Source of the DNA: a virus
Reading direction: 5' to 3' (one strand)
Virus record (IMG/VR): IMGVR_UViG_3300025141_012665
Location: 10,647-74,646 of that record
Length of the DNA: 64,000 nt
Shown here one piece after another: positions 26,901 through 54,210 of the stretch. How positions within the stretch are numbered: the first letter of the stretch is position 1; every line of letters starts with the position of its first letter. The notes beneath the pieces were generated by a model, which saw only the letters and a program-made list of their open reading frames with translations, was not told the DNA's origin and did no database searches. Made by a program: the position numbers and the translations under genes.

Positions 26901-28223
26901 CTTGAATGGACTCTTGCCGATCAATTTACGGAAAAACCCCTTGCCCTCTTCATCTTCGTTGCTGAATATTATCTCTGGACATCCTGGCTTATTGAAGATC
27001 ATCTGTTTTAATCTTATTTTCGGATTTGTAACTGTGGTCGGATCTTCTGTTGGTTCAAATTTAAAAGTTATCTTCTCCAGATCTGTCATCGACAACCCGG
27101 TTGCTTCATCAATTATTTCCATAACATTGTCGCGGAAGTGCAGCAGCATCTCGGCTTCGAACTCAAGATCTAATATGGCAGACTTGTTTCCGTCAATTGT
27201 TTTAAGCATCCCCCCTTCCAGATTTCTCCACTTTTCTAGCTGTTTTTGATATAACCTAAATCCGCCGGCGTAAAGGTATAAACCCAAAAATGAGTCTCCG
27301 GCGGCTCTCTTGAACATGGGCTCAAAATCTTCTCCAGTAAAAGTAACCTCATAATCAGTTTCAAATGGAGTATCCGGATCCGTAACGAGCTTTGCCGGCA
27401 CCCTTGACCACGCTTCGGCGTCGATACATACAGCAATCTTTGTTCGGCCCTTAATCTGGATTGGTACCGTATATCTGATCTCTGTATAATCAAGCAACTC
27501 CTCAACTACATCTCTCTGTTCTGCTCTCAAAACATAGCCTGGTACCGGATCCGGAATGGCGATTGCGGCTCCTATGCCGACAATGGCGCCGATTGTTGCT
27601 CCAATGACTGCGCCAACGGGAGTGGCGGCGGATCCTATCGCCGCACCGGTGGCAGCGCCGGCGCCGGCGGCACTGAGTATGAGATTCGCTTCGGTTTCGG
27701 TATCTGTTTTATACCCTTCTTCTTCATAATAGTACACCACAGCAACATCAGACTTGCCATGGTATTCTAGAAGATTTCTTATTCCTATCCTCTTAATGTC
27801 TTCCTGTTTTTTAGTTGGGTTCTTTAATTCAGAAATTTTTGGGCCGCCGCGGTTCGGCGGGGCAACTTCTAACATATAACAATATGTACAAGTCTTTCCG
27901 TCAAAATAAGTATTACCAGGAGTCATGAGAGTATAATCTGGAACATAAGCGTTTGGATTTGGACGACAAACTGGACATTCCACAGGCTCTGCGCCATTAA
28001 TTGATATCGGATCACACTCTAAAAATCTAAATGCCTCAACCTGAGAATCGAGATCTCCGGTGGCGCCAGAAATAGACTTGGCCTTTGGGGGGCCTGAAGC
28101 TTTAGGTAGCTTGTCTTTTCTTTTCTTTCTTTTTGCTGCGCCGGGTCCGGCTGAAAAAGCTCTCTGATCTTGAGCGAAGGAATCTAAGCTGGTCTTGTTC
28201 TGTATATTTTTTATTTTAGGCAT
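20934..28223 (-). CDS. Very large acidic hypothetical protein (2429 aa), probable virion component
   Basis: Intact ORF between the spike-like gene and gp25. Contains a glycine-zipper hydrophobic segment, many Cys and an HxH cluster near the C-terminus. Confidence 0.7.
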   Translation of the reverse strand: MPKIKNIQNKTSLDSFAQDQRAFSAGPGAAKRKKRKDKLPKASGPPKAKSISGATGDLDSQVEAFRFLECDPISINGAEPVECPVCRPNPNAYVPDYTLMTPGNTYFDGKTCTYCYMLEVAPPNRGGPKISELKNPTKKQEDIKRIGIRNLLEYHGKSDVAVVYYYEEEGYKTDTETEANLILSAAGAGAATGAAIGSAATPVGAVIGATIGAIVGIGAAIAIPDPVPGYVLRAEQRDVVEELLDYTEIRYTVPIQIKGRTKIAVCIDAEAWSRVPAKLVTDPDTPFETDYEVTFTGEDFEPMFKRAAGDSFLGLYLYAGGFRLYQKQLEKWRNLEGGMLKTIDGNKSAILDLEFEAEMLLHFRDNVMEIIDEATGLSMTDLEKITFKFEPTEDPTTVTNPKIRLKQMIFNKPGCPEIIFSNEDEEGKGFFRKLIGKSPFKASRSLYYVGSLPDMDKDLTAGEPVPWLEFVLKYTYPMLQVSYDSDNLNLFNDPSLGACLADSLLDEEGVIGAMMEALGAELSALPDAILGGLAENLCLTQEQMEEKDFKLGDQLDEDLSKTWEDAKSEIGKGDPYLDSVFIYLESILKKKKSDDETMGTIWDTLMSRLGYCGWIALIMKALDCLMQGMDQESFMKATVEAWLLEANDYVLQGVIAGLPQEDKDRIQALSDEKYANLPPPWDTMAYQIGSYNSPGMTTSEAYEAIMAGETGAGEEADAAQEASAEEAAAEYTTSQVTIHTDYEAKKADLEAQEMSDEYKVAALKILEKEYEDALYDLKYSPADPASALEGDEKFWGIAYSPETDDFSFGEGSAGAGGTYGEAMGDVQKEVFDAYRNLLLDAVGVDVLFGMISKAPGGGIIGQFFKTIPCKLPPPWTFDPQLDSFLNTLEFDMCQIAGGKVFDITMPHLADRWRLSDFNLHKQLWNAVKIAMKKAVVAIVVAMLRGLINSLLTAACDALKMLGANLADLYDGSDHFRNLLLENLCPDASADQLNASLKNFFGALGGPDSDCLASLSNGEMGEYIDDISLMLTQEQVMQLLQGNATPETLALATETARISTSECIRDLFSDPAAIAQFFRSLNIFVPANAFERYIPDLPVSPCPPGTYARIEDIKCGLLSKKGLSKKECREELDKLKDKSIQDLQDLINLMENGPLADFPPIQSSAECPVDGFYPNNPGPVDGQANSSVSALLLSPIETGVIKDLMDSDGVLNNILADTEGRRWTSHNTKVRWFGAPLARQMGIFGWNCDDSIKNPDGGGSVDQFGNTLSGQDAGTQSWIINLGAGAQGGFPPTVGAWMAKKFRSMNPELKTAIIPSGYSSLAEAKADVEEKEAINAERIEARQKYVSAFIKEHGIDSVNATSDSAELAGMLRKACYSARVFEKGIRHNWEEVEDYEVPASVYWLEILLTGGEIDCCGTEFLGMGHSAVYSVQQVKPTGWSDSSQELAGTEGKIFVDHYPADDWKLIDVPDIMTPDLSLSYSSHDTNDEGEPTFSFNLAYDYNLPDKDGFIGKRNDYTIRIKVTTASPPEEDEYAEGQFSEPIITGKAYSWTDYSFKVEANLDKDTRRYINELPMSNHVNDSWQAEVFYRMISKSIIDASSNKSETSAALAADSVRAYFSTSGSGKKFDDITSGFFRRLANRISTGRSFANPNIDIDDSDADEAGFLEPDVSNIVSDDVPSDPVMANIATGFSYGYNQDGPEIIFLDNETYGGPLGRLFPDLVPPPFYVAPPKYTGWKEIAEAFVPSPDGCDPARGPLFTLGDLEQKASQLTSKLEQDERFSQDPLCTQEAPYDKIFENSTIANIDSVLRAATRVYITEAFMRAVPIISQFEFNKDNIESGIVEFIVERIKRGLEPDGVSKWLWWNDKTNDDDYYYRFIEQAFNVVSKKVDSKILDPEKDFNSEEKRAYNTIKTKIAEFYEKNDGDLAALSFSAIKHQSFMANMFDNTATAKFGGIGAGSSDFSKGAAEKAKEYAFELMIDETIDSALVFVKRMVREEIPIVGNMFNSKLYPPIKNIDHLFLLSPAWIRGAVNGDGPLDVTSDPTKANKYNIPSGQHTSVSEAISELQSSGLTDLASSFETAYGGMSEWPFVLEKYVRIIDQESVPAEVANRSENLYDIVNMSDWKTYVQRIKSQGVTGKISEFFGKTPITGETTLDSGHTHEYEVDEKGNGFAFRVCEDKDGLDCHVHRIINWKVKESDDHEHDLPMPAWRFGLRLCYLPEADESNTFRPIISTIDKEARMREKAYELASPEGSRFLIPIASAELEIPDQEFSSFDPESYDVYCLIPELIKSAEYKSLFRYVFPFHRFLSLLTIYCMQGFYDSLGNEGWPDQGGDMWENRGGNFWSSFSGWERADEQVFSNSREAAKNALNALYETTQAEYSSETSSKAAALSFAELLKPKLNFEDGLRWWQRGKRIKNSPFNMDGDNCK

Positions 28224-41156: not shown

Positions 41157-41896
41157 GCCGACTCCTTTTCGAAATACAAAAAGCCCCAAGGAAGATGCAA
41201 CACATCCGTAAACATCAGTCTCTTGTTAGAGTCGCTTTGTATTGTGTATGTGCCCCTACCATCATGAACATTGGAGAGATCAATATCAATTTCAAATTTT
41301 CTCTTAAACTTTATATGAAATCCATACCGGGATGCAATATGTTCCATTTTCTTGATCGAGTGTATATTATACGGATATGCCTTATTGTAGCGTTCATCTC
41401 GAATTGTTATGTCATATTCAAGCGCCCTATTGGTAAAAAGAGAAAACATAAAGACCCCCTTCTTTGCGTTTTGAAAACACTTCTCACAAAAACTTTCGCC
41501 TTTATCAAAATCTAAAAAAGAAAGCACCTGTGTTGAGCCGACTATATCATATTTTTCATTAAGATCTAAAACATTTAAATGTTTAAATGTCGTATTTTTT
41601 ACTTCAAAATGACTATGTGCTTTTCTTGCTTCCTCTAAGTAATGCTTATTTATATCAATGCCCACAAAACTGAAAGATGGATACTGATTGGCCAAGTACA
41701 TAAGGTTGGCGCCGGCGGAGCACCCTACATCAAGGACACTTAAGCTTAGATTTTTTTCATCACCCAAAGATTCATCCAAACAATCAATAATAAATTTAGT
41801 GCTTCGATACATTTCATTATATTGGCGAGCATTGTAGAGATCCATCCCCTTGCATTGGGATCCCCACACAGCATTTGAGCCTCTAATCATGTCCAT
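41153..41896 (-). CDS. Class I SAM-dependent methyltransferase
   Basis: VLDVGCSAG, GIDIN, KYDIV. Confidence 0.85.
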   Translation of the reverse strand: MDMIRGSNAVWGSQCKGMDLYNARQYNEMYRSTKFIIDCLDESLGDEKNLSLSVLDVGCSAGANLMYLANQYPSFSFVGIDINKHYLEEARKAHSHFEVKNTTFKHLNVLDLNEKYDIVGSTQVLSFLDFDKGESFCEKCFQNAKKGVFMFSLFTNRALEYDITIRDERYNKAYPYNIHSIKKMEHIASRYGFHIKFKRKFEIDIDLSNVHDGRGTYTIQSDSNKRLMFTDVLHLPWGFLYFEKESA

Positions 41897-42656
41897 TTTT
41901 CGCCTCTTTAAGTTTAAGCTCGGTTTTGGAAATTTGATTATTTTTCCACCTTTCTTCTAGATAAAAATTAATATTAACCAATTCTTTGTTTTTGTCTAAG
42001 AATGTCAATATGTCTCGTGTATCAAATGCAGGGAGATCTATTTGTTCGACAACCTTTGAGAAGAAGTTAAAATCATCTTTATAGTCTAGTGTCATACGAA
42101 TATCACTTCTCCGATAGGCGGCAGGAATATTTTTAAGCAAAGAAAGCTCAAACAACCCGGTCTCTGTAAAATATACATACATCATTTCGGTGTCGTTGGT
42201 ATCTTTTATTTCGCACACCTTTCTTAGTGCAGTGGTTTTTATACCATATGTAAATGAACCACACACCACTTCATTACTGTGTATGAAATCGCATTGTTCA
42301 TCATCAAACTGCTTAAACGCCACATCCATTAATTCATGGGAACAAAACAGATCATCGCCATCAGCAGTTACAAAAAACTCTATATTATAACGATCACATG
42401 TGTCGAGCCAGCGCTGTAGCTTGTCTTCTTCGCTTCCCCTAAAAAAAGCAATATTATTATTTGTTGCTATTTCGCACAACATATCATCCTCTGTCAATTT
42501 AGTCGTGCATAAAATGATCATATCGGCTAAATTAGATTTTTTGGCTTGATCGATAACATACTCAATGGTGTGCTTTCCTTTAATCTTTTTATAGGACTTA
42601 TTGGGCAACCTAGAAGAGTTGCTTCTAACTGTTATTAAAATTGCTTTTTTGCCCAC
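41883..42656 (-). CDS. Cytidylyltransferase, CTP_transf_3 (SpsF/NeuA/KdsB) family; probable CMP-nonulosonate synthetase
   Basis: ITVRSNSSRLPNKS, FRGSEEDKLQRW, ADGDD, RMTLDYKDDF. Confidence 0.88.
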   Translation of the reverse strand: MGKKAILITVRSNSSRLPNKSYKKIKGKHTIEYVIDQAKKSNLADMIILCTTKLTEDDMLCEIATNNNIAFFRGSEEDKLQRWLDTCDRYNIEFFVTADGDDLFCSHELMDVAFKQFDDEQCDFIHSNEVVCGSFTYGIKTTALRKVCEIKDTNDTEMMYVYFTETGLFELSLLKNIPAAYRRSDIRMTLDYKDDFNFFSKVVEQIDLPAFDTRDILTFLDKNKELVNINFYLEERWKNNQISKTELKLKEAKNGHD

Positions 42657-42680
42657 TTGAACTCACTTTGAATATTAATT

Positions 42681-42709
42681 ATTATAACCTATTTTGCATC
42701 AACTGTCAA
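42681..42709 (-). promoter_or_regulatory. Perfect sigma70 consensus promoter TTGACA-17-TATAAT
   Basis: Minus strand TTGACA gttgatgcaaaataggt TATAAT, 25 nt upstream of the cytidylyltransferase GTG. Confidence 0.85.
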
Positions 42710-43552
42710 ATTATAAGGCAGATTATTCTTCTTAAAAGATAGATTATGTACCCGCACCCCTCGCGAGGAAGCAAGGGTGCACAAGTATTTTAAGTCTCCC
42801 AAAATCTGGACTCTTTCTCGTGGATCATCTAAAGCGTCCATCGGTTTAAACTTCCCATCAATCCTTCCTTCACCCATAGTGGCTTCACCCACCATGAAGC
42901 GTTCATCATTATATCCAGCATGGGTCATGCCCGTAGCCTGTAGCGACTTATTGTATGACAAATCAAAACCAGTAACGCTAATGGGGTTACACCCCAGCCA
43001 CAAAGCAAAGGCAATCATATGATTTGTTACAGTATTGCAACGAGAATAAGTCTTTCGCAATCCATGGTCTTGTGCTAATAAATTTTGAAATATCTGGTGT
43101 TCCCAGAGCCATGGATAGACCATGTTCATCTTTTCGTCTTCCCTTGCAATCTCTAAAAGATCTGAGAACTCGTGCAGTCTTGGTATCGTAACAAATGTTC
43201 TTATGTTTTTTTCCAGACATATCTTAAATGGCTCTTTGAGATCTTTAATATTGTTTGCTGCGCACCAGAAGTCTGGCTTAAAATCATCAAAGAAATTAAT
43301 TTTATGAAACCAATTACATGTAATTTTTAAATGTGATTTATATTTTTCTTTATCAATATCTAAAAGGCTCGGGCCATGGCCCATTACCAAAGCCGGCTTG
43401 TTCAAGAAGCTGTCTTTTAGGTCACAAATCTTATCGAATCCCTCAAGCAAGTCCTTCTTAAAATTTTTCTTATCTTCGTCTCCCAGTATCTGCGCATTAG
43501 GCAGCCTAGTTGAATTATAGTTAGTGGCTGTATATTCTCTCAAATCTATCAT
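42689..43552 (-). CDS. Maf/DUF115 (MptE-like, GT42/Cst-like fold) putative nonulosonate transferase
   Basis: ALVMGHGPSL, ITCNWF, PDFWCAAN, TVTNHMIAFALWLGCNPISVTGFD. Start re-called at ATG 43552, after the rmlB stop. Confidence 0.75.
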   Translation of the reverse strand: MIDLREYTATNYNSTRLPNAQILGDEDKKNFKKDLLEGFDKICDLKDSFLNKPALVMGHGPSLLDIDKEKYKSHLKITCNWFHKINFFDDFKPDFWCAANNIKDLKEPFKICLEKNIRTFVTIPRLHEFSDLLEIAREDEKMNMVYPWLWEHQIFQNLLAQDHGLRKTYSRCNTVTNHMIAFALWLGCNPISVTGFDLSYNKSLQATGMTHAGYNDERFMVGEATMGEGRIDGKFKPMDALDDPRERVQILGDLKYLCTLASSRGVRVHNLSFKKNNLPYNLTVDAK

Positions 43553-43556
43553 ATTT

Positions 43557-44507
43557 TCACCAAATAAAGTTTTGTTTGTAGTGTTTAACGATGTTGACAA
43601 TTTCTTCATTAAACTTCTTTTTAGGCTCCCAACCTAGGCTCCGGAGCTTTCTATCGTTTAGTGCGTATCGGACATCTTGCCCTTCGCGGTAGGCATTAAA
43701 ATCAACATATTGCTCCCAGTTGTCGTCTGTTCCAAAATATGCCTTAATAATCTTCCTCACGGTTTCAGAATTCGGCTGCTCAAAGCCGCCGGCAACATTA
43801 TAGATTTCATTAACATTACCAGACTCAATAACAGTCAAAACCGCTTCGGCTGTATCGTCTGCATGCAACCAATTGCGAATTGGCTTTCCTTCGTCATGAA
43901 GTTTAATCTTCTTTCCTCTAGTAAGGTTTTTCACGGCAAGTGGTATAAGTTTTTCTGGATATTGTCCTATTCCATAATTATTTGTTGGTCTTAACATAAT
44001 ATATTCAACACCATAAGTTCGTGACCATGCATTGATCAGCATATCGCCGGCCGCTTTTGCTGCGGAATATGGGTTACTTGGCTTCAAGACATCGGCCTCT
44101 GAGTGTGCTCCAATCTCGATATCGCCATAAACCTCGTCGGTACTAATATGAATCAAAATTGGTTTATCATTAATGTTGGTAGGCTTATGCCTTATTAAAT
44201 CCAGAAGGTTTTTTACACCCAGTATGTTGCTGTTGATGAAGTCGCCGCTGTTTATTATACTATTCCCAACATGAGATTCTGCCGCGAAATTAACAATGTA
44301 ATCGCAGTCATATAAGTGTTCAATGTCTTTAATATCTATCTTTTTAAAACAAAAATTTGGATAGGCCTGAAACTCTTCTAACAAGGAAATGTCTGCTGCA
44401 TATGTACACTTATCTACGCCATAAACTTTCCAACCTCGCTCCAAGCATTTTCTCGTAAAATAAGAACCTATGAAGCCTAGGCATCCCGTAACATAAACCA
44501 ATTTCAT
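43557..44507 (-). CDS. rmlB: dTDP-glucose 4,6-dehydratase-like
   Basis: TGCLGFIG, DKCTYAA, NFAAESHV, HISTDEVYG, PSNPYSAAK, TNNYG..QYPEKLIP, DVRYA. Confidence 0.88.
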   Translation of the reverse strand: MKLVYVTGCLGFIGSYFTRKCLERGWKVYGVDKCTYAADISLLEEFQAYPNFCFKKIDIKDIEHLYDCDYIVNFAAESHVGNSIINSGDFINSNILGVKNLLDLIRHKPTNINDKPILIHISTDEVYGDIEIGAHSEADVLKPSNPYSAAKAAGDMLINAWSRTYGVEYIMLRPTNNYGIGQYPEKLIPLAVKNLTRGKKIKLHDEGKPIRNWLHADDTAEAVLTVIESGNVNEIYNVAGGFEQPNSETVRKIIKAYFGTDDNWEQYVDFNAYREGQDVRYALNDRKLRSLGWEPKKKFNEEIVNIVKHYKQNFIW

Positions 44508-45835
44508 TTATTTCTCCTAAAGAAATCGTCAACTACTTTTTTAACATAGTCAAGCTTCTCCTCTGTTAGGCCGGCAAAAGTACCTAGAAAGAAGGAATTC
44601 GAAGCCGATAAACTAGCTATTGGAAATGCCTTTTTTAGATCTCCATATTCCCCGGCCAAATGATGGTAAGCAGGGTGAGCAAGAATATTTCCTGAAAAAT
44701 AAGAACGAGTCTGGATTCGATTATTCTCCAAATGCGACACAATGTCCTGACGGGTAAAGTAAGCAGACTCTTTAATTGTAAGTAAATATGCAAACCAGCA
44801 CGGATCAGATTTTTCTGTTGGCTCCGGAAGGTGAAAGTGTTCCTTGTATGGTCTAAATATTTCTTGCAATATTTCAAAATTTCTTCGTCGGGCTGCATCC
44901 AGATCTGGAAGCTTGCATAATTGTTCTAACCCTATAGCCGCTTGTAATTCCAAAGGTTTAAGATTGTAGCCTATTTCATCGTAAACATAGCGGTGATCAT
45001 AAATTGCATCTGGCAAGCCCGGCAGCCAGTTTCTAAACCTATTTCCGCACGCAGTGGAAGACACTGTGCATGTTGTTTTTGCCGAATTGCAATAACATGC
45101 TCGGCCCCAATCACGAATGCTGGATATGGCTTTTCGAGCCGCAGGGTCATCAGTTGCAACAAACCCACCTTCTCCCATAGTCATGTGGTGTGCGGGATAA
45201 AAGGAGCATGTCGAGATGTGCCCAAATGATCCAAGCTTCTTTCCATCATAATAAGAGCCGAGTGCGTCACAAGAGTCCTCGATAAAGATAAGGTCATATT
45301 CTCGCACAATAGACATTAATCTTTCCATGTCTGGCGGGTTCCCAAAAACATGAGCAAACATAATTCCTCGAATACTTGGATCCTTTTTTAGCTCTTCTTC
45401 TACTTGGTCTAAATCTAAATTTAAATCTGGGAGCGTAACATCAACGAAGACAGGCTCGAATCCATTTTGAATAATTGGATTGAGGGTGGTGGGAAAACAC
45501 GACACGGGGGTGATTATTTTAGATCCCTCCGGAAAGTTAAATGCATTCTTAGATCGTAGAGAGGAGACAGCAAGAAGGTTAGCAGAACTTCCAGAATTTG
45601 TTAAAGAGCCGCGTTTCTTTCCAAGATAAGATGGAAATGCCTTCTCAAATTCGCGGGCTTTGTCGCCGAACACTAGCCAACTATCCAACAAGGATTCAAC
45701 TGCTGCACAATATTCGTTCTCGTCAAAGATATGTCCAGAGTATGAAACCCAGTCTTTGTCCGGATTCCAGGCAATATCATTCTTTTTTTTCGCATATTGC
45801 TTCACTAGCTTCAAAATATCTTGTAGCTCACTCAT
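44504..45835 (-). CDS. rfbH: NDP-4-keto-6-deoxyglucose 3-dehydrase (E1; RfbH/DdhC family)
   Basis: TNSGSSANLLA, FPTTLNP, EDSCDALG, SFYPAHHMTMGEGG (His in place of the aminotransferase Lys), RDWGRACYC...C Fe-S ligands, YDHRY.Y..IGYNLK. Confidence 0.92.
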   Translation of the reverse strand: MSELQDILKLVKQYAKKKNDIAWNPDKDWVSYSGHIFDENEYCAAVESLLDSWLVFGDKAREFEKAFPSYLGKKRGSLTNSGSSANLLAVSSLRSKNAFNFPEGSKIITPVSCFPTTLNPIIQNGFEPVFVDVTLPDLNLDLDQVEEELKKDPSIRGIMFAHVFGNPPDMERLMSIVREYDLIFIEDSCDALGSYYDGKKLGSFGHISTCSFYPAHHMTMGEGGFVATDDPAARKAISSIRDWGRACYCNSAKTTCTVSSTACGNRFRNWLPGLPDAIYDHRYVYDEIGYNLKPLELQAAIGLEQLCKLPDLDAARRRNFEILQEIFRPYKEHFHLPEPTEKSDPCWFAYLLTIKESAYFTRQDIVSHLENNRIQTRSYFSGNILAHPAYHHLAGEYGDLKKAFPIASLSASNSFFLGTFAGLTEEKLDYVKKVVDDFFRRNK

Positions 45836-46778: not shown

Positions 46779-47760
46779 CCACTCCCTCTTTGTTCAGCTT
46801 TAGCATCCAACTATCGATCATGTCGTCCATTAAAGTTTCGAAGGTAAACTCAGGCTGCCATCCAAGAACTTCGCGGGTTCTGGTAGAATCTCCTTTCAAA
46901 TATTTCAACTCTTCGGGCCTCATATATATCGGGTTCTGTGTTACATGATTTCTATAGTCCATACCCAGTTTTTCAAAAACATATTTACATAAATCTCGTA
47001 CCGAGTTGGTTTCCCCTGTGGCTACTATCCACTCATCAGGGGTTTTATGGTTTATAATCATATGCATTGCTTTAACATAATCCCTGGAGTGTCCCCAGTC
47101 CCTATAGGAATCTAAATTTCCCAATTCAAGCTTGTCTCGTATGCCCATCTTGATTTCAACTGCGGCTTTCACTACTTTGTTGGTTACAAAATTTGTGCCG
47201 CGGCGAGGTGATTCATGATTAAATAAAACACCATTGCAAGCATGTAAACTGTAGGCATGCCTGTAGTGTCTTACTAGATTGAAAGCCAAAAGTTTAGCAC
47301 ACCCATATGGGCTAACTGGCTTCATGGGCGTCGACAGTCGCTGGGCGCCGTCGTCGTCTACTGAGTTCCCGAACATTTCTGAGGAACTGGCTTGGTAGAA
47401 TTTGGCTTTCGGCGCGAACAACCTATAAGCCTCAAGAAGATTCAACACCGCCATGCCATTTGTCTGAATAGTGAACGCCGGCATATCGAAACTGATCCGG
47501 ACATGGCTCATGGCGGCTAGATTATATATTTCATCTGGCTGTACATCTAGCATAATTTTAGTCAATGAGGTATTGTCCAGCATATCACCATAGTATGTGT
47601 GAATTTTATCACCTAAGTGAGCTATTCTACTGTCTTGGTTCTCTGCTACAGAGGACCTTCGTATGATCCCGTGAACTTCATATCCCTGCTCTAGCAAATA
47701 TTCCGCCAAATAACTTCCATCTTGTCCGCTAATGCCGCTAATTAATGCTCTCTTTTTCAT
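46771..47760 (-). CDS. gmd: GDP-mannose 4,6-dehydratase, second paralog
   Basis: [55 protein letters not shown]. Confidence 0.95.
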   Translation of the reverse strand: MKKRALISGISGQDGSYLAEYLLEQGYEVHGIIRRSSVAENQDSRIAHLGDKIHTYYGDMLDNTSLTKIMLDVQPDEIYNLAAMSHVRISFDMPAFTIQTNGMAVLNLLEAYRLFAPKAKFYQASSSEMFGNSVDDDGAQRLSTPMKPVSPYGCAKLLAFNLVRHYRHAYSLHACNGVLFNHESPRRGTNFVTNKVVKAAVEIKMGIRDKLELGNLDSYRDWGHSRDYVKAMHMIINHKTPDEWIVATGETNSVRDLCKYVFEKLGMDYRNHVTQNPIYMRPEELKYLKGDSTRTREVLGWQPEFTFETLMDDMIDSWMLKLNKEGVDD

Positions 47761-48347
47761 TTAAAAATCTCCATCTGTGTTAAATCTGGCCAATCTGATA
47801 TCACCCACTGCCTGGGGCTATTCTCGATTGCATCTCCAAGCTTTTGAAGGCCAAGCTGGGCTATCTCTGGCGTCATATAATAATGATACCCTATTGTATC
47901 GATATTTTGTCCTCTCCACGGCGCATCAGGCCGGCGACCATCATAGGACATTTTTTTTAAAAGCATTGCAGCCTCTTTGTTATCGGTAAGAATCATGCCG
48001 CCTCTGCCTAAGCTCAAATGCTTTCTGAATTGGAAACTCAAGCACATAAATGTGTCTGGTATATATGAATTCTTTCTCCACAATACCGCAGCATCTATAA
48101 TATTTGTGCCCCCCAAATAATAAAAATCGGTCCAATCCTCATTGCGCCATTCTAAATCAATATTTAATTTATGCGCTAAAAAGGGTACCGATATATATGT
48201 GCGTTTCGGGACGCTGTACCGCTCTACTTGTTGAAGTCGCAGACACAACTCAATAGCATGAGTGCAGCAATCCACAGCAACGGCATAGGGAGAGCCAAAA
48301 AAGCTAGCTACGCTGGCTTCAAACTTCTCTATTGCTTCAAAGCTCAT
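47757..48347 (-). CDS. Short DegT-family PLP-dependent aminotransferase-like protein (196 aa)
   Basis: YAVAVDCCTHAIEL, IIDAA, SFQFRKHLSLGRGGMILTD, GYHYYMTPE.A..GL. Confidence 0.8.
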   Translation of the reverse strand: MSFEAIEKFEASVASFFGSPYAVAVDCCTHAIELCLRLQQVERYSVPKRTYISVPFLAHKLNIDLEWRNEDWTDFYYLGGTNIIDAAVLWRKNSYIPDTFMCLSFQFRKHLSLGRGGMILTDNKEAAMLLKKMSYDGRRPDAPWRGQNIDTIGYHYYMTPEIAQLGLQKLGDAIENSPRQWVISDWPDLTQMEIFK

Positions 48348-48880
48348 TTAACACACTCTACATTCAAACTGATAAGTGTTCCTTTTTCTTTATCCATGTG
48401 AGGAATATAAGCCTGTGAATGATCATCACAATGTGCATGATCTGTTTTGCGCCAGTCATATAGCCTTATATCACGAAAACCACACTGCGTCAGCAGAGTA
48501 CTTAAGCTTTTATAGTCGTATGAGGTCTTGTGATATATTATTTTATCTTCCATCTTCATCTTCCCGTACAATGGACCTAGCAGGTTTTCCAGCTTTATAA
48601 TCTTTTCGGTATATAATCTGGCCATGGATTCGAAGTCCGGCACTGCTACCCTTAGCGTGCCTCCCTTTTTTAAGACTCTGCGCCACTCTTCTAACACTCC
48701 TGTTATTTCTGTTCGATCAAAATATTCTATTACATGAGAAGAATAAATTAAATCAACAGTGTTATCAGCAAAATCTAACGCGGTTATGGATTTGTAATCC
48801 AAATGGTCATAGTCTCCGCCATCGATATGAACCCACGAAGGGCCAAAATTTCTCCAGCCGCATGCCATATTTATTTTCAC
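48344..48880 (-). CDS. SAM-dependent methyltransferase (type 11-like)
   Basis: KINMACG, FADNTVDLIYSSHVIEYF, EWRRVLKKGG.LRVAVPD. Confidence 0.85.
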   Translation of the reverse strand: MKINMACGWRNFGPSWVHIDGGDYDHLDYKSITALDFADNTVDLIYSSHVIEYFDRTEITGVLEEWRRVLKKGGTLRVAVPDFESMARLYTEKIIKLENLLGPLYGKMKMEDKIIYHKTSYDYKSLSTLLTQCGFRDIRLYDWRKTDHAHCDDHSQAYIPHMDKEKGTLISLNVECVK

Positions 48881-48896
48881 AATCCATATCCCATTC

Positions 48897-49310
48897 TTAA
48901 ATTTCTTCCTTGTCTACATCGCGGCCATAATAGGGCCCAGTCTTATATTCATACACTGCTGTTCCTTCTTCCATAGAAAGATAGTTGTGACCACCCCTAA
49001 ATGTAATAGAAATGTCGCCAGGGTTTAAAACCACTTCTTCTATTATTGCGTCATCAATATCGTACAGTGTGGCTTTAATTTGGCCACTTATTACCGCCCA
49101 CGATTCCTGACAAATGTCCGATGTTCTTATTTGGGTCTTATGTTTGTGCGGTATGAATGTCTTTCCTTCCGGCATTTCGAAACACGCAACTTGCAAATAC
49201 TGCTCTGGTGCGCAGATATCCACTCTTTTTTGCGTAATATCTTCTCTTCTGTTGATTATATGTAACAACAAATCTTTATCAACTCTAGAATAAATTTCTC
49301 TCACCGGCAC
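48897..49310 (-). CDS. Cupin-fold protein (WbuC-like / sugar isomerase-like)
   Basis: PHKH...QESW.VISG...GD......GGH...YEYKTGPY. Confidence 0.75.
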   Translation of the reverse strand: MPVREIYSRVDKDLLLHIINRREDITQKRVDICAPEQYLQVACFEMPEGKTFIPHKHKTQIRTSDICQESWAVISGQIKATLYDIDDAIIEEVVLNPGDISITFRGGHNYLSMEEGTAVYEYKTGPYYGRDVDKEEI

Positions 49311-50155
49311 TCCAGGTCTTTAATCATTTGTTCGATGCCCTTGTTTAGTCCATCAGTTTTTATGCCCAAACTAAGAAATCTTCGCGGGTCACCGCTATAA
49401 GACAGGGCTTTACTTCTTTCCTTTAATATAACACCATTCGAAGCGCCTGTCAAGTTTAAAATTAGATAAGCTATATCTGATAAGTTAACCTTATTCTTAT
49501 AACAAAGATTTAGATCCTTATACAAACAGCGATCTGGATTCTTTATTAAGAAGTCGACTGTTTTTAGGACATCCCCAATCGAAATAAAGTCCATTTCCAT
49601 ATCTTTATGTATGAGGATCGGCAGACCCTCCATCAGCCTGTTAATAGAGTTCTTCACAAACCTAGATGACAGCTCATGAGGCCCGAAACAACCGAAAAGC
49701 CTTAAATTTATAATATTGTTATGTTTATTTATTTCTCTAGTAATTAAATTCTTAGACTGGCCATAATAATCAGACGGCCACCTATTGTAGATCTCGTCCT
49801 CTCTCATGTTTTCAATTTGTCTACTTCTATCAAATTCTGCTCCGGAACCAAAATTTATCATCAACTTATATTGCCCTGAATGGCGGGAGAGGTTTCGGAA
49901 CATTAACATATTATCAATAAAATCATCAAGCGTGTCCGGATTTTCTCGACGACCCCCCTTTACGGCCGTATGTAAAACAATATCGATATTATTGTTAAGA
50001 AAGAATTCTTCTACGGCTTTCTCGCTTGTAACATCTAATTGTTGTCTTCCAAGCGAATATACTTTATGTTCCCCGCCGGAATAATGTTCTTTAAAGTGCT
50101 TCCCCAAGAAGCCATTGGCGCCGGTGATCAAAATGTTCAAAGCTTTTGTTTCCAA
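49301..50155 (-). CDS. NAD-dependent epimerase/dehydratase (extended SDR), candidate sugar ketoreductase
   Basis: ITGANGFLG, NFGSGAEF, YYGQSK (YxxxK), LRLFGCFG. Confidence 0.88.
   Translation of the reverse strand: METKALNILITGANGFLGKHFKEHYSGGEHKVYSLGRQQLDVTSEKAVEEFFLNNNIDIVLHTAVKGGRRENPDTLDDFIDNMLMFRNLSRHSGQYKLMINFGSGAEFDRSRQIENMREDEIYNRWPSDYYGQSKNLITREINKHNNIINLRLFGCFGPHELSSRFVKNSINRLMEGLPILIHKDMEMDFISIGDVLKTVDFLIKNPDRCLYKDLNLCYKNKVNLSDIAYLILNLTGASNGVILKERSKALSYSGDPRRFLSLGIKTDGLNKGIEQMIKDLECR
49425..49453 (-). promoter_or_regulatory. sigma70-type promoter TTGACA-17-TATATT (extended TG) inside the epimerase gene
   Basis: Minus strand TTGACA ggcgcttcgaatggtgt TATATT, about 115 nt upstream of the cupin start. 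Confidence 0.6.
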
Positions 50156-50493
50156 CTAGAGACATTCAAGGCCTTATCATCTAGATATATGTCCGCCACA
50201 GGCTTTGGGCTTGGGCCGGACTTTTTTATAAATTCTGGGATGTTCTCGTTGATCGCATCGAATTCCAATCCTTTTTCTTTACACCAATTCACCGCATCAG
50301 TTAAACATGGATAATCTTTATTGTCTCCTCTGCAAGTATATAATATTAATTTATGGCCATCTACTCTAAGCTCTTTAAGTCTATCCATTAATTCAATCTG
50401 ATCTTCTGTTTGTTTTCCAATCCCTGGAAAAGCATATTCACACAGAGTACCATCGAAATCTACCGCGATAGTTAATCTCTTTTTATTCATCAC
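50137..50493 (-). CDS. Small HAD-superfamily hydrolase (BT0820-like)
   Basis: IAVDFDGTL, ILYTCR, FDAINEN, KPVADIYLDDK. Confidence 0.85.
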   Translation of the reverse strand: MMNKKRLTIAVDFDGTLCEYAFPGIGKQTEDQIELMDRLKELRVDGHKLILYTCRGDNKDYPCLTDAVNWCKEKGLEFDAINENIPEFIKKSGPSPKPVADIYLDDKALNVSSWKQKL

Positions 50494-51622
50494 TAAACTC
50501 TCTTATATTTATGTCTACTAATTCTTTTGCCGCCAAGTAGGCCAAGCGTATCTTTGTTTTATTGCTCCAAAAATCCAAGCTCTCTGTATGTTTTTCAACC
50601 ACTTTTCTTGCGTATGTTCCCACGGCGACACCGTTGCAGCGCACTCCAGTCTTATTTGCAAGTTCCTTAGTTAACTGATTCGTTCCACCTGATAAAATTA
50701 TATACACATTTTTATTATGACCATGAGATCGATATTTCAATTTTCCTCTTTTATCTCTTTTCATATTAAACCTTTTATTAACTACATCGGCACAGGCAAC
50801 CGCCTGTAGGGTCGTATTTAGATCACCTTCCCCACCACTCATTGGATAGCCATCAGCCTGAATTGCGAACCGGTTGCCGGATATTTTTCTTACGCGTTCG
50901 ATTCTCTTCTCTAGGTTCAGATTTCCTAAATTAAGTCGATCTAAGCACATGAAATTCATATTATGTGGGTTAATTTCATTTATTAACGACCACTCCCTCA
51001 TAGTAATATCATCATCCTGAACGCTAGCATGCAATTCAAACATCTCTGCGCCAGCAGCAAGACATTCTGGAAGCAACTCCCGAAGTTCGAACTCACTATT
51101 TCTGTAAGAAATGATATCACTTTTTGGACATATATTGCTGCATTTTCCGCACCCGATACATAGCTCCTTAGTCACTATCTCTTTAGACTGGTCTTGCAAC
51201 TCGAAGGTGGCGCCAAGCTTCTTAAATGCTTCTAAATTATCTTTGATGTGAAAATCATAAGGTATGGCATCAGTGGGGCACACAGGAGCACACAGGCCAC
51301 AAGAAATACACTTAAAAGGATCTATATAAGATTTTCTAACATGGTGGTCGCCCGGCATGCCGAGACTAACCATTATATAAGGCCTCTCCTTCGGTGGGGC
51401 ATCAAACTCCTCTAATAGCTCAAAAGCCCTATCTACCCCCTCTGTGGCTGCGGTGATGACATCCAAATTTGCCGACACATCCAATATTTTTGCGCCTGCT
51501 AGCGTATATACTAGCGCAAGACTACGAACCATAGACGCATCTTCGTTTCCGGCGCCACAGATCATTTTAAAGCACTTCTCTTCATTCAGTAAGCGCTGAA
51601 TATCTTGTAGCCTGTCGCTCAA
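50483..51622 (-). CDS. ldpA: LdpA-family iron-sulfur protein (2x[4Fe-4S] ferredoxin domain plus LdpA C-terminal domain)
   Basis: FKMICGAG...LVYTLAGA..LDVSA, PYIMVSL...GDHHVRK, CISCGLCAPVCP and CIGCGKCSNICP, ELHA, QADGYPMSG, LSGGTN, GVAVGTYAR follow the cyanobacterial LdpA motif order. Confidence 0.82.
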   Translation of the reverse strand: MSDRLQDIQRLLNEEKCFKMICGAGNEDASMVRSLALVYTLAGAKILDVSANLDVITAATEGVDRAFELLEEFDAPPKERPYIMVSLGMPGDHHVRKSYIDPFKCISCGLCAPVCPTDAIPYDFHIKDNLEAFKKLGATFELQDQSKEIVTKELCIGCGKCSNICPKSDIISYRNSEFELRELLPECLAAGAEMFELHASVQDDDITMREWSLINEINPHNMNFMCLDRLNLGNLNLEKRIERVRKISGNRFAIQADGYPMSGGEGDLNTTLQAVACADVVNKRFNMKRDKRGKLKYRSHGHNKNVYIILSGGTNQLTKELANKTGVRCNGVAVGTYARKVVEKHTESLDFWSNKTKIRLAYLAAKELVDINIREFSDE

Positions 51623-52443
51623 CCGATTCTACCTTTTAAAGTGTTCGCTCTCTCTAAATAGGAATTACCTACACTAGTATAATTCAGAGCCTTAAAGTTT
51701 AGCCAATCGATTTCGAAAGTCAGAACAGATTTAATGGTATTATGAAGGTCGCCAATATTCGAATCATTTAACCCAACAACAACATTCCTTGTTTCGATCT
51801 TATCAAGAAGATTCTTGTCGTACAAATGTTTTATAAAATCAATACTGCTGGACGAAATATTCCCGCCCATGGTCGTCTTTAAATTTTTATTTTTAGCCCT
51901 CGTCAGAATATCCTCTACTATACGGCTTATTTTTTCGCTGTCGGCATGAGATTTGTCTAATCCATAAGATTTTGTCAAATCAGAACGGCCGACAATAATT
52001 CCGTCTAATTTCTCTGCGTGTACAGAATTTAAAATACTATCCAGATTATCATATGAATTACGGCTCTCACACAGGAAATATAATTCAATATCTCCTATAA
52101 ATGTTGTTGCATCAATAAACTTTCTCAAAGCAAAATCCGTCTCAATCATGGGCGCCACTATAGAGTTGATTCCCATGCTAACACAATTATTTATATCTGT
52201 AATTGCCTCGCAGCCACCAATTTTAATATACATCATCAATCCACACATTTCAGTTATTCTTCTCATTGTTATAACATCATCTAATATGGCGCCTTCGTCT
52301 TCAAAGGACTGCTTTATTCCAACAACATTGCTTTCCGTGCTGAGAATCGAAAGCTTATTGGCTAGTGCCTGTGCTGTTTGCTTCTCTAGATCGTCATAGT
52401 CGTACCTTTTTCCTTGCCACGCTCCTGTTATCTTCTTGTCCAT
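51619..52443 (-). CDS. HpcH/HpaI aldolase / citrate-lyase family protein
   Basis: GIKQSFEDEG, IKIGGCEA, IVAPMIET, FLCES, IIVGRSDL. Confidence 0.75.
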   Translation of the reverse strand: MDKKITGAWQGKRYDYDDLEKQTAQALANKLSILSTESNVVGIKQSFEDEGAILDDVITMRRITEMCGLMMYIKIGGCEAITDINNCVSMGINSIVAPMIETDFALRKFIDATTFIGDIELYFLCESRNSYDNLDSILNSVHAEKLDGIIVGRSDLTKSYGLDKSHADSEKISRIVEDILTRAKNKNLKTTMGGNISSSSIDFIKHLYDKNLLDKIETRNVVVGLNDSNIGDLHNTIKSVLTFEIDWLNFKALNYTSVGNSYLERANTLKGRIG

Positions 52444-52446
52444 TTT

Positions 52447-54210
52447 TTAAATCCTCCTCTTAGTAGTGTGTGTATCAATGATCATTTCTTTCTCGAATTC
52501 CTCCTTTGAGAGAAAAGGCGACATGTTCTCTAAAGGTTGAGATGTCAGACTACCATCTTCTTCTTGTCTAGATGCGGCCGTTGGGAATATTTTTTCTTCA
52601 GGGGGGCAAATAATCTCGCACATACATTGACCACTGGAGTTTATAATTTTAGGCAACAAATTCTCAAGCTCTCGCATGTTGGTTATCTTATAAAACTTTA
52701 TCCCATATGCAGCAGCGATCTTTTCACATTCAGGAAATGAAATTCCGGATTCCGGATCGACACCAGAGAACCTATTATCAAAATACTTAATTTGAGTATT
52801 TCTTATCGATAAATATCCACCGTTGTTGAGAATAAAAATTTTAATAGGCATCTTGTTGTGGACTATTGTTTGAAGTTCCTGTATGTTGAACTGAAACGAA
52901 CCCTCGCCAGTGATGGCTAACATATTTACATCCGGATCGGCTAAATGTGCACCTATCGATGCGGGTATGGCGAAACCCATTTCTCCTTGGGCTGCCGGCA
53001 ATATAAGTCGATTATCTGTCATCGACTGAGCCATTACATAATAAGCAGATCCGGCATCCGCAACAACGGCAGCATCTTGACCCTTAGTTTCTTCTGAAAG
53101 CTTTTTCGAGAAAGAATACATGTTTAGTTTATCCATATCTGGCCTATCAAACACTGGCCAGATTTTCTTCCAGTGGGCGGCCTTATTTAGCCAATAATTT
53201 GAAGTCTCGTAATCAATGGACATATTTTCCAATATGAATTGTTTGGCATCCATTTCTATAATGGAATCAATTTTTATTGTATCCTTAAGGTGCTCACCAC
53301 CATCAATATCTACAGCAATCTTTTTGGCTTCTCTGGCGAAAAGATCATATCTGAATCCGATGGATGGGATACTCAACGAACTACCTATCGAAATAACCAA
53401 ATCCGAATTGGCTACTGCAAAGTTGCCGGCTCTTGTTCCTTTTATTCCAATTCTTCCAATATATAAAGGATGATCGGATGGTATAAGATCTGTACCTAAA
53501 AATGTAAAAGCGCAGGGTATGTTATATTTTTCTATAAATCTTAAGAATTCTTTACGGGCGCCGGAAAGATGTACTCCATTTCCCGCTATTATAATTGGTC
53601 GTTTCGATTTCTTTAAATATTCCTCAAATTCGCAGAACTTTTTAAGGGCGGGCGTTTCAATTATAAAGTGTTTTAAATCTTCCGGAGAGATTTCCGATGC
53701 TTGTACATCCAATGGTATATCTAGCCACACAGGGCCTGGACGGCCGGTTGTGCATAAATGATATGCTTTTTCTAGCTCATATGCAATATCTTCGGGGTCT
53801 TGTACCATGGTCGCATATTTTGTTATAGTTTTCACTATTTCTACTATGTTAGCTTCCTGTACTCCTAATTTCCGGAGGGGAACTTTTGATAAATAGGTAG
53901 TGTCTTTTCTGTTTGCTTGACCAGAAACAACGATGACGGGATGACTATCTTGCCATGCATCTAATATTCCAGTTATAGTGTTAGTGCTTCCGCAGCCAGA
54001 TGTCGGAACGACCAAAGCAACCTCGTTGTTCATCTTTGAATAGCCGACCGCGGCCATGGCACAAGATTGTTCATGATGAAAAAAAACTGGCTTTATATTG
54101 CTTTTTGTTACCGCATCGTTTAAAAACATTGCGCCGCCGCCCGGAACCTCAAATGCAAATTTGACTCCCCTTTCGGACAAAAAGTTCATGATGTAATCAG
54201 CTACTTTCAA
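52447..54210 (-). CDS. ThDP-dependent enzyme, acetolactate-synthase-like (YerE-type sugar C-C ligase candidate)
   Basis: VPGGGAMFLND, HHEQSCAMAA (catalytic Glu), GRPGPVWLDIPLDVQ, GEMGFAIPA, GEGSFQFNIQEL...LNNGGY (ThDP motif), PLENMSP tail seen in sugar-cluster homologs. Confidence 0.88.
   Translation of the reverse strand: MKVADYIMNFLSERGVKFAFEVPGGGAMFLNDAVTKSNIKPVFFHHEQSCAMAAVGYSKMNNEVALVVPTSGCGSTNTITGILDAWQDSHPVIVVSGQANRKDTTYLSKVPLRKLGVQEANIVEIVKTITKYATMVQDPEDIAYELEKAYHLCTTGRPGPVWLDIPLDVQASEISPEDLKHFIIETPALKKFCEFEEYLKKSKRPIIIAGNGVHLSGARKEFLRFIEKYNIPCAFTFLGTDLIPSDHPLYIGRIGIKGTRAGNFAVANSDLVISIGSSLSIPSIGFRYDLFAREAKKIAVDIDGGEHLKDTIKIDSIIEMDAKQFILENMSIDYETSNYWLNKAAHWKKIWPVFDRPDMDKLNMYSFSKKLSEETKGQDAAVVADAGSAYYVMAQSMTDNRLILPAAQGEMGFAIPASIGAHLADPDVNMLAITGEGSFQFNIQELQTIVHNKMPIKIFILNNGGYLSIRNTQIKYFDNRFSGVDPESGISFPECEKIAAAYGIKFYKITNMRELENLLPKIINSSGQCMCEIICPPEEKIFPTAASRQEEDGSLTSQPLENMSPFLSKEEFEKEMIIDTHTTKRRI

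What the first reader, a model, noticed from the sequence alone, without database searches (positions are those of the whole stretch)
50483..51622. LdpA ('circadian input') homolog embedded in a phage sugar-biosynthesis operon
Seen: the full LdpA motif series with two CxxCxxCxxxCP ferredoxin motifs, translationally coupled to an HpcH-type aldolase upstream and a HAD phosphatase downstream, between a ThDP enzyme and an SDR. Established: LdpA is known as a redox-sensing Fe-S component of the Synechococcus clock input, with no defined catalytic activity. RfbH/DdhC (E1) needs an electron donor: E3 (DdhD/RfbI), or ferredoxin/flavodoxin for SpnQ-type enzymes. No E3 gene is visible here. Inference: LdpA-family proteins may be Fe-S enzymes or electron carriers in sugar metabolism, here possibly replacing E3 or working with the aldolase to make the branching unit. 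That would give the family a biochemical function.
Basis: partly seen in the sequence, partly recalled or inferred. Interest (0 to 1): 0.78.

Follow-up and report, generated by a model that had tools for sequence, protein, structure and literature searches.

The report
Iron-sulfur barrel enzyme in phage sugar operon
A giant marine phage carries a relative of the cyanobacterial clock protein LdpA that looks like a real enzyme, and it travels with, and is sometimes fused to, a pyruvate aldolase and a phosphatase that build a sugar side chain, so it is not a stand-in for the missing E3 reductase.

Summary
Window 50483-51622 (-) encodes a 379-aa LdpA-family protein with two CxxCxxCxxxCP motifs. 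It is translationally coupled to a divergent HpcH/HpaI aldolase upstream and a BT0820-type HAD phosphatase downstream, between an ALS-like ThDP enzyme and an SDR.

The AlphaFold model (pLDDT 94) is a phosphate-binding (beta/alpha)8 barrel with a 2x[4Fe-4S] ferredoxin domain inserted after strand 3. Eighteen barrel residues are invariant in 85 homologues, including ten bona fide clock LdpAs.

The E3-replacement idea is not supported:
- Of the 80 viral loci with the closest RfbH/E1 relatives, 79 lack an LdpA-like gene, and none has an E3.
- The aldolase/LdpA-like/HAD triad occurs in records with no E1.

The partnership with the aldolase and phosphatase is well supported:
- All 35 non-cyanobacterial loci have a HAD gene directly downstream, of two unrelated HAD types.
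- 37 of 46 loci have an HpcH-family aldolase within 2 kb.
- Natural fusions exist with the HAD and with a DmpG-type pyruvate aldolase.

Best reading: a ferredoxin-wired redox enzyme acting on a phosphorylated intermediate, in a module that makes a 2-oxo acid. That acid is consumed here by the ThDP carboligase, and elsewhere by a CMP-transferase. The exact reaction is unknown.

This scan noted the same family in sugar clusters on other DNA. I found no paper describing it.

The parts
50483..51622 (-). LdpA-family Fe-S TIM-barrel protein (379 aa): the finding
   Evidence: Pfam and NCBIfam hits. AF2 model pLDDT 94, (beta/alpha)8 barrel. Sits in a 99%-supported clade of HAD-adjacent homologues.
51098..51337 (-). 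Inserted 2x[4Fe-4S] ferredoxin domain (residues ~96-175), between barrel strand 3 and helix 3
   Evidence: Secondary structure of the model. Fer4 hits at residues 99-120 and 146-171. All eight Cys are invariant or nearly so in 85 sequences.
51275..51310 (-). First CxxCxxCxxxCP motif (C105-P116)
   Evidence: Translation
51125..51160 (-). Second CxxCxxCxxxCP motif (C155-P166)
   Evidence: Translation
51619..52443 (-). Divergent HpcH/HpaI-superfamily (class II pyruvate aldolase-like) barrel, 274 aa
   Evidence: Pfam 32.5 bits. Its profile hits YfaU/HpaI across the metal-ligand strands. AF2 model pLDDT 92, best fold matches HpaI/HpcH/YfaU. Stop overlaps the LdpA-like start.
50137..50493 (-). Small capless HAD phosphatase (BT0820 family); likely ATG start at 50490
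   Evidence: NCBIfam NF046079 82 bits. PDB 2OBB E 4.6e-17 with DFDGT motif. Overlaps the LdpA-like stop.
52447..54210 (-). ALS-like ThDP enzyme, 587 aa; candidate YerE/ErwE-type carboligase
   Evidence: TPP_enzyme_N/M/C domains. Below every acetolactate synthase cut-off. Context and PMC9306805.
49301..50155 (-). Extended SDR, 284 aa; candidate side-chain ketoreductase (YerF/ErwF role)
   Evidence: Epimerase and RmlD_sub_bind domains. Conserved next to E1 in related loci.
48897..49310 (-). WbuC-family cupin
   Evidence: NCBIfam TIGR04366 36.5 bits, below its cut-off of 42
44504..45835 (-). RfbH/DdhC (E1) 3-dehydrase
   Evidence: NF011936 469 bits, cut-off 423
43557..44507 (-). NDP-hexose 4,6-dehydratase
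   Evidence: TIGR01181 301 bits, below its cut-off; Pfam
41883..43609 (-). KdsB-like cytidylyltransferase plus MptE-like/DUF115 protein: a possible alternative consumer of a 2-oxo sugar acid
   Evidence: Pfam. The same pair directly follows the triad in L105.

Best explanation
The gene encodes an LdpA-family enzyme. It is a phosphate-binding (beta/alpha)8 barrel whose catalytic face is capped by a built-in 2x[4Fe-4S] ferredoxin wire. It is the middle member of a conserved three-gene module: a divergent HpcH/HpaI pyruvate aldolase, the LdpA-like protein, and a HAD phosphatase. I infer that this module condenses pyruvate with a phosphorylated carbonyl compound, changes its redox state, and removes the phosphate to give a free 2-oxo (ulosonic-type) acid. 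In this phage the product is most likely the acyl donor that the adjacent ThDP carboligase attaches to the 4-keto-3,6-dideoxyhexose made by the 4,6-dehydratase and RfbH. The SDR then reduces the side-chain ketone. In sister loci the same module feeds a KdsB-like CMP-transferase instead. Shown: the fold, the invariant site, the gene linkage and the fusions. Inferred: that the substrate is phosphorylated (from the phosphate-binding motifs and the obligatory phosphatase), that the step is a reduction (from an NAD(P)H-flavin reductase next to it in L001), and the order of the steps. The exact reaction is unknown.
For: Fold: the model has pLDDT 94. Its best matches are phosphate-binding barrels: KDPG aldolase Z 17.2, hexulose-phosphate synthase 16.7, DERA, TrpA and RPE. 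Invariant site: K19, D48, S86, D92, H94, K97, E196, H198, Q255, D257, plus the SGGTN and GxxxGTxAR phosphate-loop motifs, in 85 of 85 or nearly all sequences. Linkage in 46 non-clock loci: a HAD sits directly downstream in 35, which is all the non-cyanobacterial ones. Two unrelated HAD types fill this position. An HpcH-family aldolase lies within 2 kb in 37, ThDP in 17, E1 in 14. Fusions: P0125 is LdpA-like fused to a BT0820-type HAD. Nineteen clusters of about 885 aa combine a DmpG-type aldolase, a DUF115-like region and an LdpA-like domain at 50% identity over its full length. The sister clade pairs the triad with CTP_transf_3 and DUF115, without ThDP or E1. In L001 an FNR-family flavin reductase follows the HAD. 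Published frame: pyruvate aldolase, then ThDP ligase, then reductase, for erwiniose and caryophyllose (PMC9306805).
Against: No substrate, cofactor or activity has been shown. The fold matches are generic and flat (Z 17 down to 14.7), so they name no reaction. The described acyl-branched pathways need neither an Fe-S protein nor a phosphatase. The window also holds NeuB, a CMP-transferase and DUF115, so the consumer of the product here is ambiguous. A ThDP gene of the window's type occurs without the triad (L210). Whether the barrel holds a flavin or a metal could not be tested.
Confidence: 0.6

Rival explanations
1. E3 surrogate. The two [4Fe-4S] clusters pass electrons to the [2Fe-2S]/PMP enzyme RfbH (E1) for C3 deoxygenation, replacing the missing DdhD/AscD.
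For: RfbH is present and passes its cut-off. No FNR or Fer2 gene is in the record. None is found in 16 of 17 related viral records, including a 296-kb record rated 100% complete. E1 and the LdpA-like gene co-occur in 14 loci.
Against: 79 of the 80 closest E1 loci in IMG/VR have no LdpA-like gene, and still no E3. E1 there must therefore use host donors. The triad occurs in five viral records and three MAGs with no RfbH above cut-off. An electron carrier would not need an invariant barrel pocket, an obligatory phosphatase neighbour, or fusion to an aldolase.
Confidence: 0.08
2. Non-redox barrel enzyme. It would be a sugar-phosphate isomerase, epimerase or aldolase filling the KdsD slot of a Kdo-like pathway (KdsD, KdsA, KdsC, KdsB), with the Fe-S domain serving a structural or regulatory role.
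For: The cassette in L105 parallels the Kdo pathway one to one apart from this protein. The nearest folds are isomerases, epimerases and aldolases that act on phosphosugars. The invariant Lys, Asp, Glu and His residues suit acid-base chemistry.
Against: All eight cluster cysteines are invariant or nearly so (83-85 of 85) across a family down to 27% identity. Fully Cys-ligated dicluster ferredoxin modules normally carry electrons. A dedicated NAD(P)H-flavin reductase sits beside the gene in L001.
Confidence: 0.2
3. Redox sensor or regulator like clock LdpA, tuning the sugar pathway to the host's redox state without catalysing a step.
For: Published LdpA work describes only redox sensing (PMC13421787).
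Against: The gene is translationally coupled inside a biosynthetic operon. It is fused to enzymes. No regulatory or DNA-binding domain was found. The pocket is conserved like an active site.
Confidence: 0.05

Closest known systems
LdpA (light-dependent period A) of Synechococcus elongatus; NCBIfam NF045992, Pfam PF12617 + PF25160
   Same: Same architecture from end to end: barrel plus inserted dicluster ferredoxin. All eight cluster Cys and 18 barrel residues are identical in ten true LdpAs.
   Different: Only 27-30% identity to true LdpA. Scores 141 bits against the 450-bit equivalog cut-off. Separate clade. True LdpA loci have no aldolase, HAD, ThDP or E1 neighbours in 12 of 12 genomes. No clock context here.
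Acyl-branched sugar pathways: yersiniose (YerE/YerF), erwiniose (ErwI/J/E/F), caryophyllose (MMAR_2331/2332); PMC9306805
   Same: A 4,6-dehydratase and E1 make the 4-keto-3,6-dideoxyhexose. An aldolase/citrate-lyase-family protein and an ALS-like ThDP enzyme and an SDR lie together, as in the caryophyllose cluster.
   Different: The published schemes include no Fe-S barrel protein and no phosphatase. The aldolase here is a very divergent HpcH relative. Whether the ThDP enzyme belongs to the YerE/ErwE clade was not tested by sequence.
Kdo pathway (KdsD, KdsA, KdsC, KdsB)
   Same: In sister loci the order is aldolase, LdpA-like, HAD phosphatase, KdsB-like cytidylyltransferase, then a transferase. 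This is the same logic: make a phosphorylated 2-keto-3-deoxy acid, dephosphorylate it, activate it with CMP.
   Different: It uses a pyruvate (class II) aldolase in place of the PEP-dependent KdsA, and an Fe-S barrel in place of the SIS-domain isomerase KdsD.
DmpFG/BphIJ aldolase-dehydrogenase complexes (ErwI/ErwJ in erwiniose)
   Same: A pyruvate aldolase is tightly partnered with a redox enzyme that handles its aldehyde substrate. Here the LdpA-like domain is fused to a DmpG-type aldolase in about 885-aa proteins.
   Different: The partner is an Fe-S barrel, not an NAD/CoA-dependent acylating dehydrogenase. Channelling is only an analogy.
E3 (DdhD/AscD/RfbI), the CDP-6-deoxy-delta-3,4-glucoseen reductase
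   Same: An Fe-S protein encoded in an E1-containing deoxysugar cluster.
   Different: E3 is a plant-type [2Fe-2S] domain joined to an FNR-type FAD/NAD module. This protein has neither, and it does not track E1.

Membership tests
LdpA family (Pfam PF25160 LdpA_Fe-S-bd + PF12617 LdpA_C) | Both Pfam models above their gathering scores | tested here: met
   38.1 bits against 27.6, and 30.5 bits against 22.2
LdpA family | Two CxxCxxCxxxCP dicluster motifs inside a larger domain | tested here: met
   C105-C115 and C155-C165; conserved in 83-85 of 85 sequences
Clock LdpA orthologue (NCBIfam equivalog NF045992) | Score at or above the 450-bit curated cut-off | tested here: not met
   141.4 bits. True LdpAs score 484-630 bits. 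Caveat: the sole family member of many small-genome Cyanobacteriota also scores only 120-180 bits.
Clock LdpA orthologue | Groups with cyanobacterial clock LdpA in a tree | tested here: not met
   Clock LdpAs form a 100%-supported group on a long branch. The window sits in a 99% clade of HAD-adjacent viral and marine proteins (quick LG+G4 tree).
Clock LdpA orthologue | Binds KaiA/CikA/SasA and alters the circadian period | not testable with these tools
   Needs genetics and biochemistry
E3 reductase (DdhD/AscD) | FNR-type FAD/NAD(P)H domain plus a plant-type [2Fe-2S] domain | tested here: not met
   No PF00970, PF00175 or PF00111 hit in the protein
E3 reductase (functional surrogate) | Co-occurs with E1 | tested here: not met
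   1 of 80 closest E1 loci has an LdpA-like gene. The triad is present without RfbH in eight records or genomes.
Acyl-branched sugar gene cluster (PMC9306805) | Genes for the 4-keto-3,6-dideoxyhexose (4,6-dehydratase, E1) | tested here: met
Acyl-branched sugar gene cluster | ThDP carboligase of the YerE/ErwE type | tested here: inconclusive
   A three-domain ALS-like enzyme below all ALS cut-offs. No YerE/ErwE reference sequence was on hand for comparison.
Acyl-branched sugar gene cluster | Pyruvate aldolase that supplies the 2-oxo-acid donor | tested here: inconclusive
   HpcH-superfamily fold with the Glu and Asp metal ligands retained, but K74 stands in the VKIGG motif where I expected HpaI's catalytic Arg70. 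That equivalence rests on my own comparison of motifs and was not covered by any alignment. Activity is unknown.
HAD phosphatase (neighbour gene) | DxDxT nucleophile motif | tested here: met
   DFDGT aligned to PDB 2OBB

The most novel reading that the evidence does not exclude
The whole LdpA family, including the cyanobacterial clock input protein, is a catalytic Fe-S TIM-barrel enzyme that turns over a phosphorylated carbonyl metabolite. The clock's 'redox sensing' would then be a consequence of that chemistry or of ligand binding. The sugar-cluster, HAD-fused and aldolase-fused homologues point to the substrate class.
Probability: 0.35. Interest if true: 0.8.

Novelty: new variant of a known kind. 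Interest (0 to 1): 0.64.

Why it matters
LdpA has been described since 2003 only as a redox-sensing clock input. A 2026 review still calls its mechanism unknown (PMC13421787). An invariant barrel pocket shared by clock and sugar-cluster members suggests the family is enzymatic. The obligatory phosphatase and aldolase partners, and the natural fusions, narrow the search for a substrate. That makes the question open to bench testing. It also adds an undescribed redox step to the newly outlined biosynthesis of long-branched and Kdo-like bacterial surface sugars. Finally, it shows that jumbo marine phages carry this chemistry.

Tried and rejected
I took neighbourhoods from the search for related loci and the genome search instead.
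- The single-protein scan of genome contigs found nothing. The alignment-based scan worked.
- Megablast of the operon against GenBank phages gave no match.
- The ESM Atlas gave no usable hit.
- A PDB sequence search with the family profile found only ferredoxin modules.
- Pfam on the barrel halves alone gave only sub-threshold DUF561/Ycf23 hits (E 0.01-0.04). This is a lead, not a result.
- I considered a third, substrate-binding cluster made from C17, C22, C187 and C226. I rejected it as a family-wide feature: C17 and C226 are replaced (by Trp and Ser) in all ten true LdpAs, and only C22 is kept there; C187 was checked only in the 53-sequence set, where it is Cys in 24.
- I considered using the NCBIfam cut-off alone to call the protein a paralogue. 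I rejected that because most sampled Cyanobacteriota have a single low-scoring copy.
- I considered PEP mutase/phosphonate chemistry for the HpcH-like and ThDP pair. I set it aside on recalled knowledge that phosphonopyruvate decarboxylases lack the middle domain; the ThDP enzyme here is the three-domain ALS type, and the barrel's best matches are HpaI/YfaU aldolases.

Full report
**What is there.** The window is part of a 74.6-kb IMG/VR virus record that CheckV rates about 23% complete.

- A PHROG baseplate-wedge hit (18701-20497), a late-sigma-like gene, a PhoH gene and a PD-(D/E)XK nuclease indicate a phage. The 23% completeness of a 74.6-kb piece implies a very large one.
- From about 33 kb to 60 kb, every gene lies on the minus strand in one tightly packed glycan operon.
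- Its order is: glycosyltransferases, ThDP enzyme, HpcH-like, LdpA-like, HAD, SDR, WbuC-type cupin, two gene fragments, Gmd, an unknown gene, RfbH/E1, a 4,6-dehydratase, an MptE-like/DUF115 gene, a cytidylyltransferase, a methyltransferase, an aminotransferase, an SDR, NeuB and a B12-radical-SAM enzyme.

**The observation.** E1 is genuine at 469 bits against a cut-off of 423. No E3-type gene is in the record.

**The protein.**

- An AlphaFold model built on 53 diverse homologues has pLDDT 94.2 and pTM 0.92.
- It is a (beta/alpha)8 barrel. The ferredoxin domain (residues ~96-175) is inserted after strand 3, at the C-terminal ends of the strands, where TIM-barrel active sites lie. That the clusters sit over the pocket is inferred from this topology; I could not measure it.
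- Structure searches return only generic phosphate-binding barrels: KDPG aldolase Z 17.2, hexulose-phosphate synthase 16.7, DERA, TrpA and RPE. Class II FBP aldolase tops the Foldseek list. No single match stands out.
- No solved structure is related by sequence beyond the ferredoxin module.
- In 85 sequences spanning the family, these residues are invariant or nearly so: K19, D48, S86, D92, H94, K97, E196, H198, Q255, D257, G258, M261, the strand-7 SGGTN and strand-8 GxxxGTxAR phosphate loops, and all eight Cys. The set includes ten proteins scoring over 600 bits on the clock-LdpA model.
- This looks like an active site. It is the same in clock LdpA.

**Family placement.**

- The window protein scores 141 bits against the 450-bit equivalog cut-off and is 27-30% identical to true LdpA.
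- In the tree it lies in a 99%-supported clade of 23 proteins, viral plus Pelagibacteraceae and Chloroflexota MAG sequences. Its sister is a 100%-supported clade of viral and Flavobacteriales sequences. Clock LdpA is far away.
- This subfamily is abundant in marine metagenomes, with hundreds of 90% clusters at about 60% identity.

**Neighbours.** I compared 46 non-clock loci and 12 true-LdpA loci by tblastn, using the window's proteins and a few reference proteins from related loci.

- A HAD phosphatase gene lies within 70 nt downstream in 35 of 46 loci, which is every non-cyanobacterial locus.
- Two unrelated HAD types fill that position: the capless BT0820 type, and a capped 256-aa DKDGT type in L009, L011-L014, L023 and L107.
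- An HpcH-family aldolase lies within 2 kb in 37 of 46. It belongs to at least two subfamilies.
- ThDP is present in 17 and E1 in 14.
- None of the 12 clock-LdpA loci has any of these genes.
- Eight of 20 sole-copy genes from small-genome Cyanobacteriota also have a capped HAD directly downstream.

**Fusions.**

- P0125 is an LdpA-like protein fused to a BT0820-type HAD that is 57% identical to the window's HAD.
- Nineteen clusters of about 885 aa combine an N-terminal DmpG-type pyruvate aldolase (PDB 3DXI, E 1e-53), a DUF115-like middle region and a C-terminal LdpA-like domain. That domain is 50% identical over its full length.

**The E3 idea, tested both ways.**

- Among 80 IMG/VR loci with the closest E1 relatives (56-73% identity, same glycosyltransferase/SDR/E1/dehydratase synteny), only one carries an LdpA-like gene. 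It lies on the same contig as L087. None carries an FNR-like gene. Twenty-six have a ThDP enzyme without the LdpA-like gene.
- The reverse also holds. The triad is present in five viral records and three MAGs with no RfbH above cut-off. Those records are incomplete.
- A related 296-kb record rated 100% complete has E1 and the triad but no FNR-type gene.
- So phage E1 evidently relies on host donors whether or not an LdpA-like gene is present.

**What the module probably does.**

- In the sister clade the order is GT2, HpcH-like, LdpA-like, HAD, KdsB-like cytidylyltransferase, DUF115. This parallels KdsD/A/C/B.
- In the window's clade the module sits between a ThDP carboligase and its reductase, beside the E1 genes. 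This fits the published aldolase, ThDP ligase, reductase scheme for erwiniose and caryophyllose (PMC9306805).
- Both consumers need a free 2-oxo acid. That is the simplest common product.
- The phosphate-binding motifs and the obligatory phosphatase argue that the LdpA-like enzyme works on a phosphorylated intermediate.
- The dicluster wire, together with an NAD(P)H-flavin reductase placed right after the HAD in L001, argues for electron input, that is, a reductive tailoring step.
- I cannot tell which bond is changed. I also cannot tell whether the enzyme acts before the aldolase (making the aldehyde acceptor) or after it (modifying the keto acid).

**Literature and earlier notes.**

- I found no paper linking LdpA relatives to sugar biosynthesis. 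A 2026 review still treats LdpA purely as a redox sensor of unknown mechanism.
- Earlier notes of this scan reported LdpA-like barrels in sugar cassettes on other genomes and reached a similar reading. I re-derived the linkage independently here.

**Verdict.**

- The E3 reading is rejected, at about 8%.
- The reading as a partner enzyme of the aldolase and phosphatase is favoured, at about 60%. A non-redox isomerase-like role is the main rival, at about 20%.

Noticed in passing
window 47757-48880 (-): Two short adjacent ORFs look like gene remnants. One (178 aa) matches only the C-terminal part of SAM-methyltransferase models. The other (196 aa) matches only positions ~164-236 of the 360-position DegT aminotransferase model.
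   Followed up: no
window 6847-17136 and 20934-28223 (-): Two giant ORFs of 3429 and 2429 aa flank a baseplate-wedge-like gene at 18701-20497 (PHROG E 1e-24). I did not search the giant ORFs themselves against PHROGs. Of the nine other proteins searched, five had no hit and the rest matched only the baseplate-wedge, a late-sigma-like and a nucleotide-sugar epimerase family.
   Followed up: partly
window 33237-60188 (-): About 27 kb of the phage fragment is one glycan operon with at least three sugar routes: Gmd (GDP-sugar), 4,6-dehydratase + RfbH (3,6-dideoxyhexose), and NeuB + cytidylyltransferase + DUF115 (nonulosonic acid). It also holds a B12-radical-SAM enzyme and six or more glycosyltransferases.
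   Followed up: partly
G006-G085 (Cyanobacteriota sample); L219-L238: Each of 80 sampled Cyanobacteriota genomes has exactly one LdpA-family gene, but only 27 pass the NCBIfam LdpA cut-off. The small-genome members score 120-180 bits. The picocyanobacterial copies placed in the tree group with non-cyanobacterial sugar-cluster proteins, and 8 of 20 small-genome copies have a capped HAD directly downstream. The model, or the orthology assumption for picocyanobacterial 'LdpA', may need revisiting.
   Followed up: partly
L139-L218: RfbH/E1 cassettes are common in large marine viral contigs. None of the 80 has an E3-like gene within 10 kb. 27 of them have an ALS-like ThDP enzyme, which suggests yersiniose-type branched sugars are widespread in phage glycan islands.
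   Followed up: partly
L001 11525-12247 (+): A 240-aa FNR-family NAD(P)H-flavin reductase with no Fe-S domain lies directly after the HAD gene. It is the only such case among 17 related viral records.
   Followed up: partly
L016 (G005:C21:6022-6249): In one Prochlorococcus SAG, a second open frame of 292 aa weakly similar to the N-terminal part of the LdpA model (27 bits) lies right after the LdpA-like gene.
   Followed up: no
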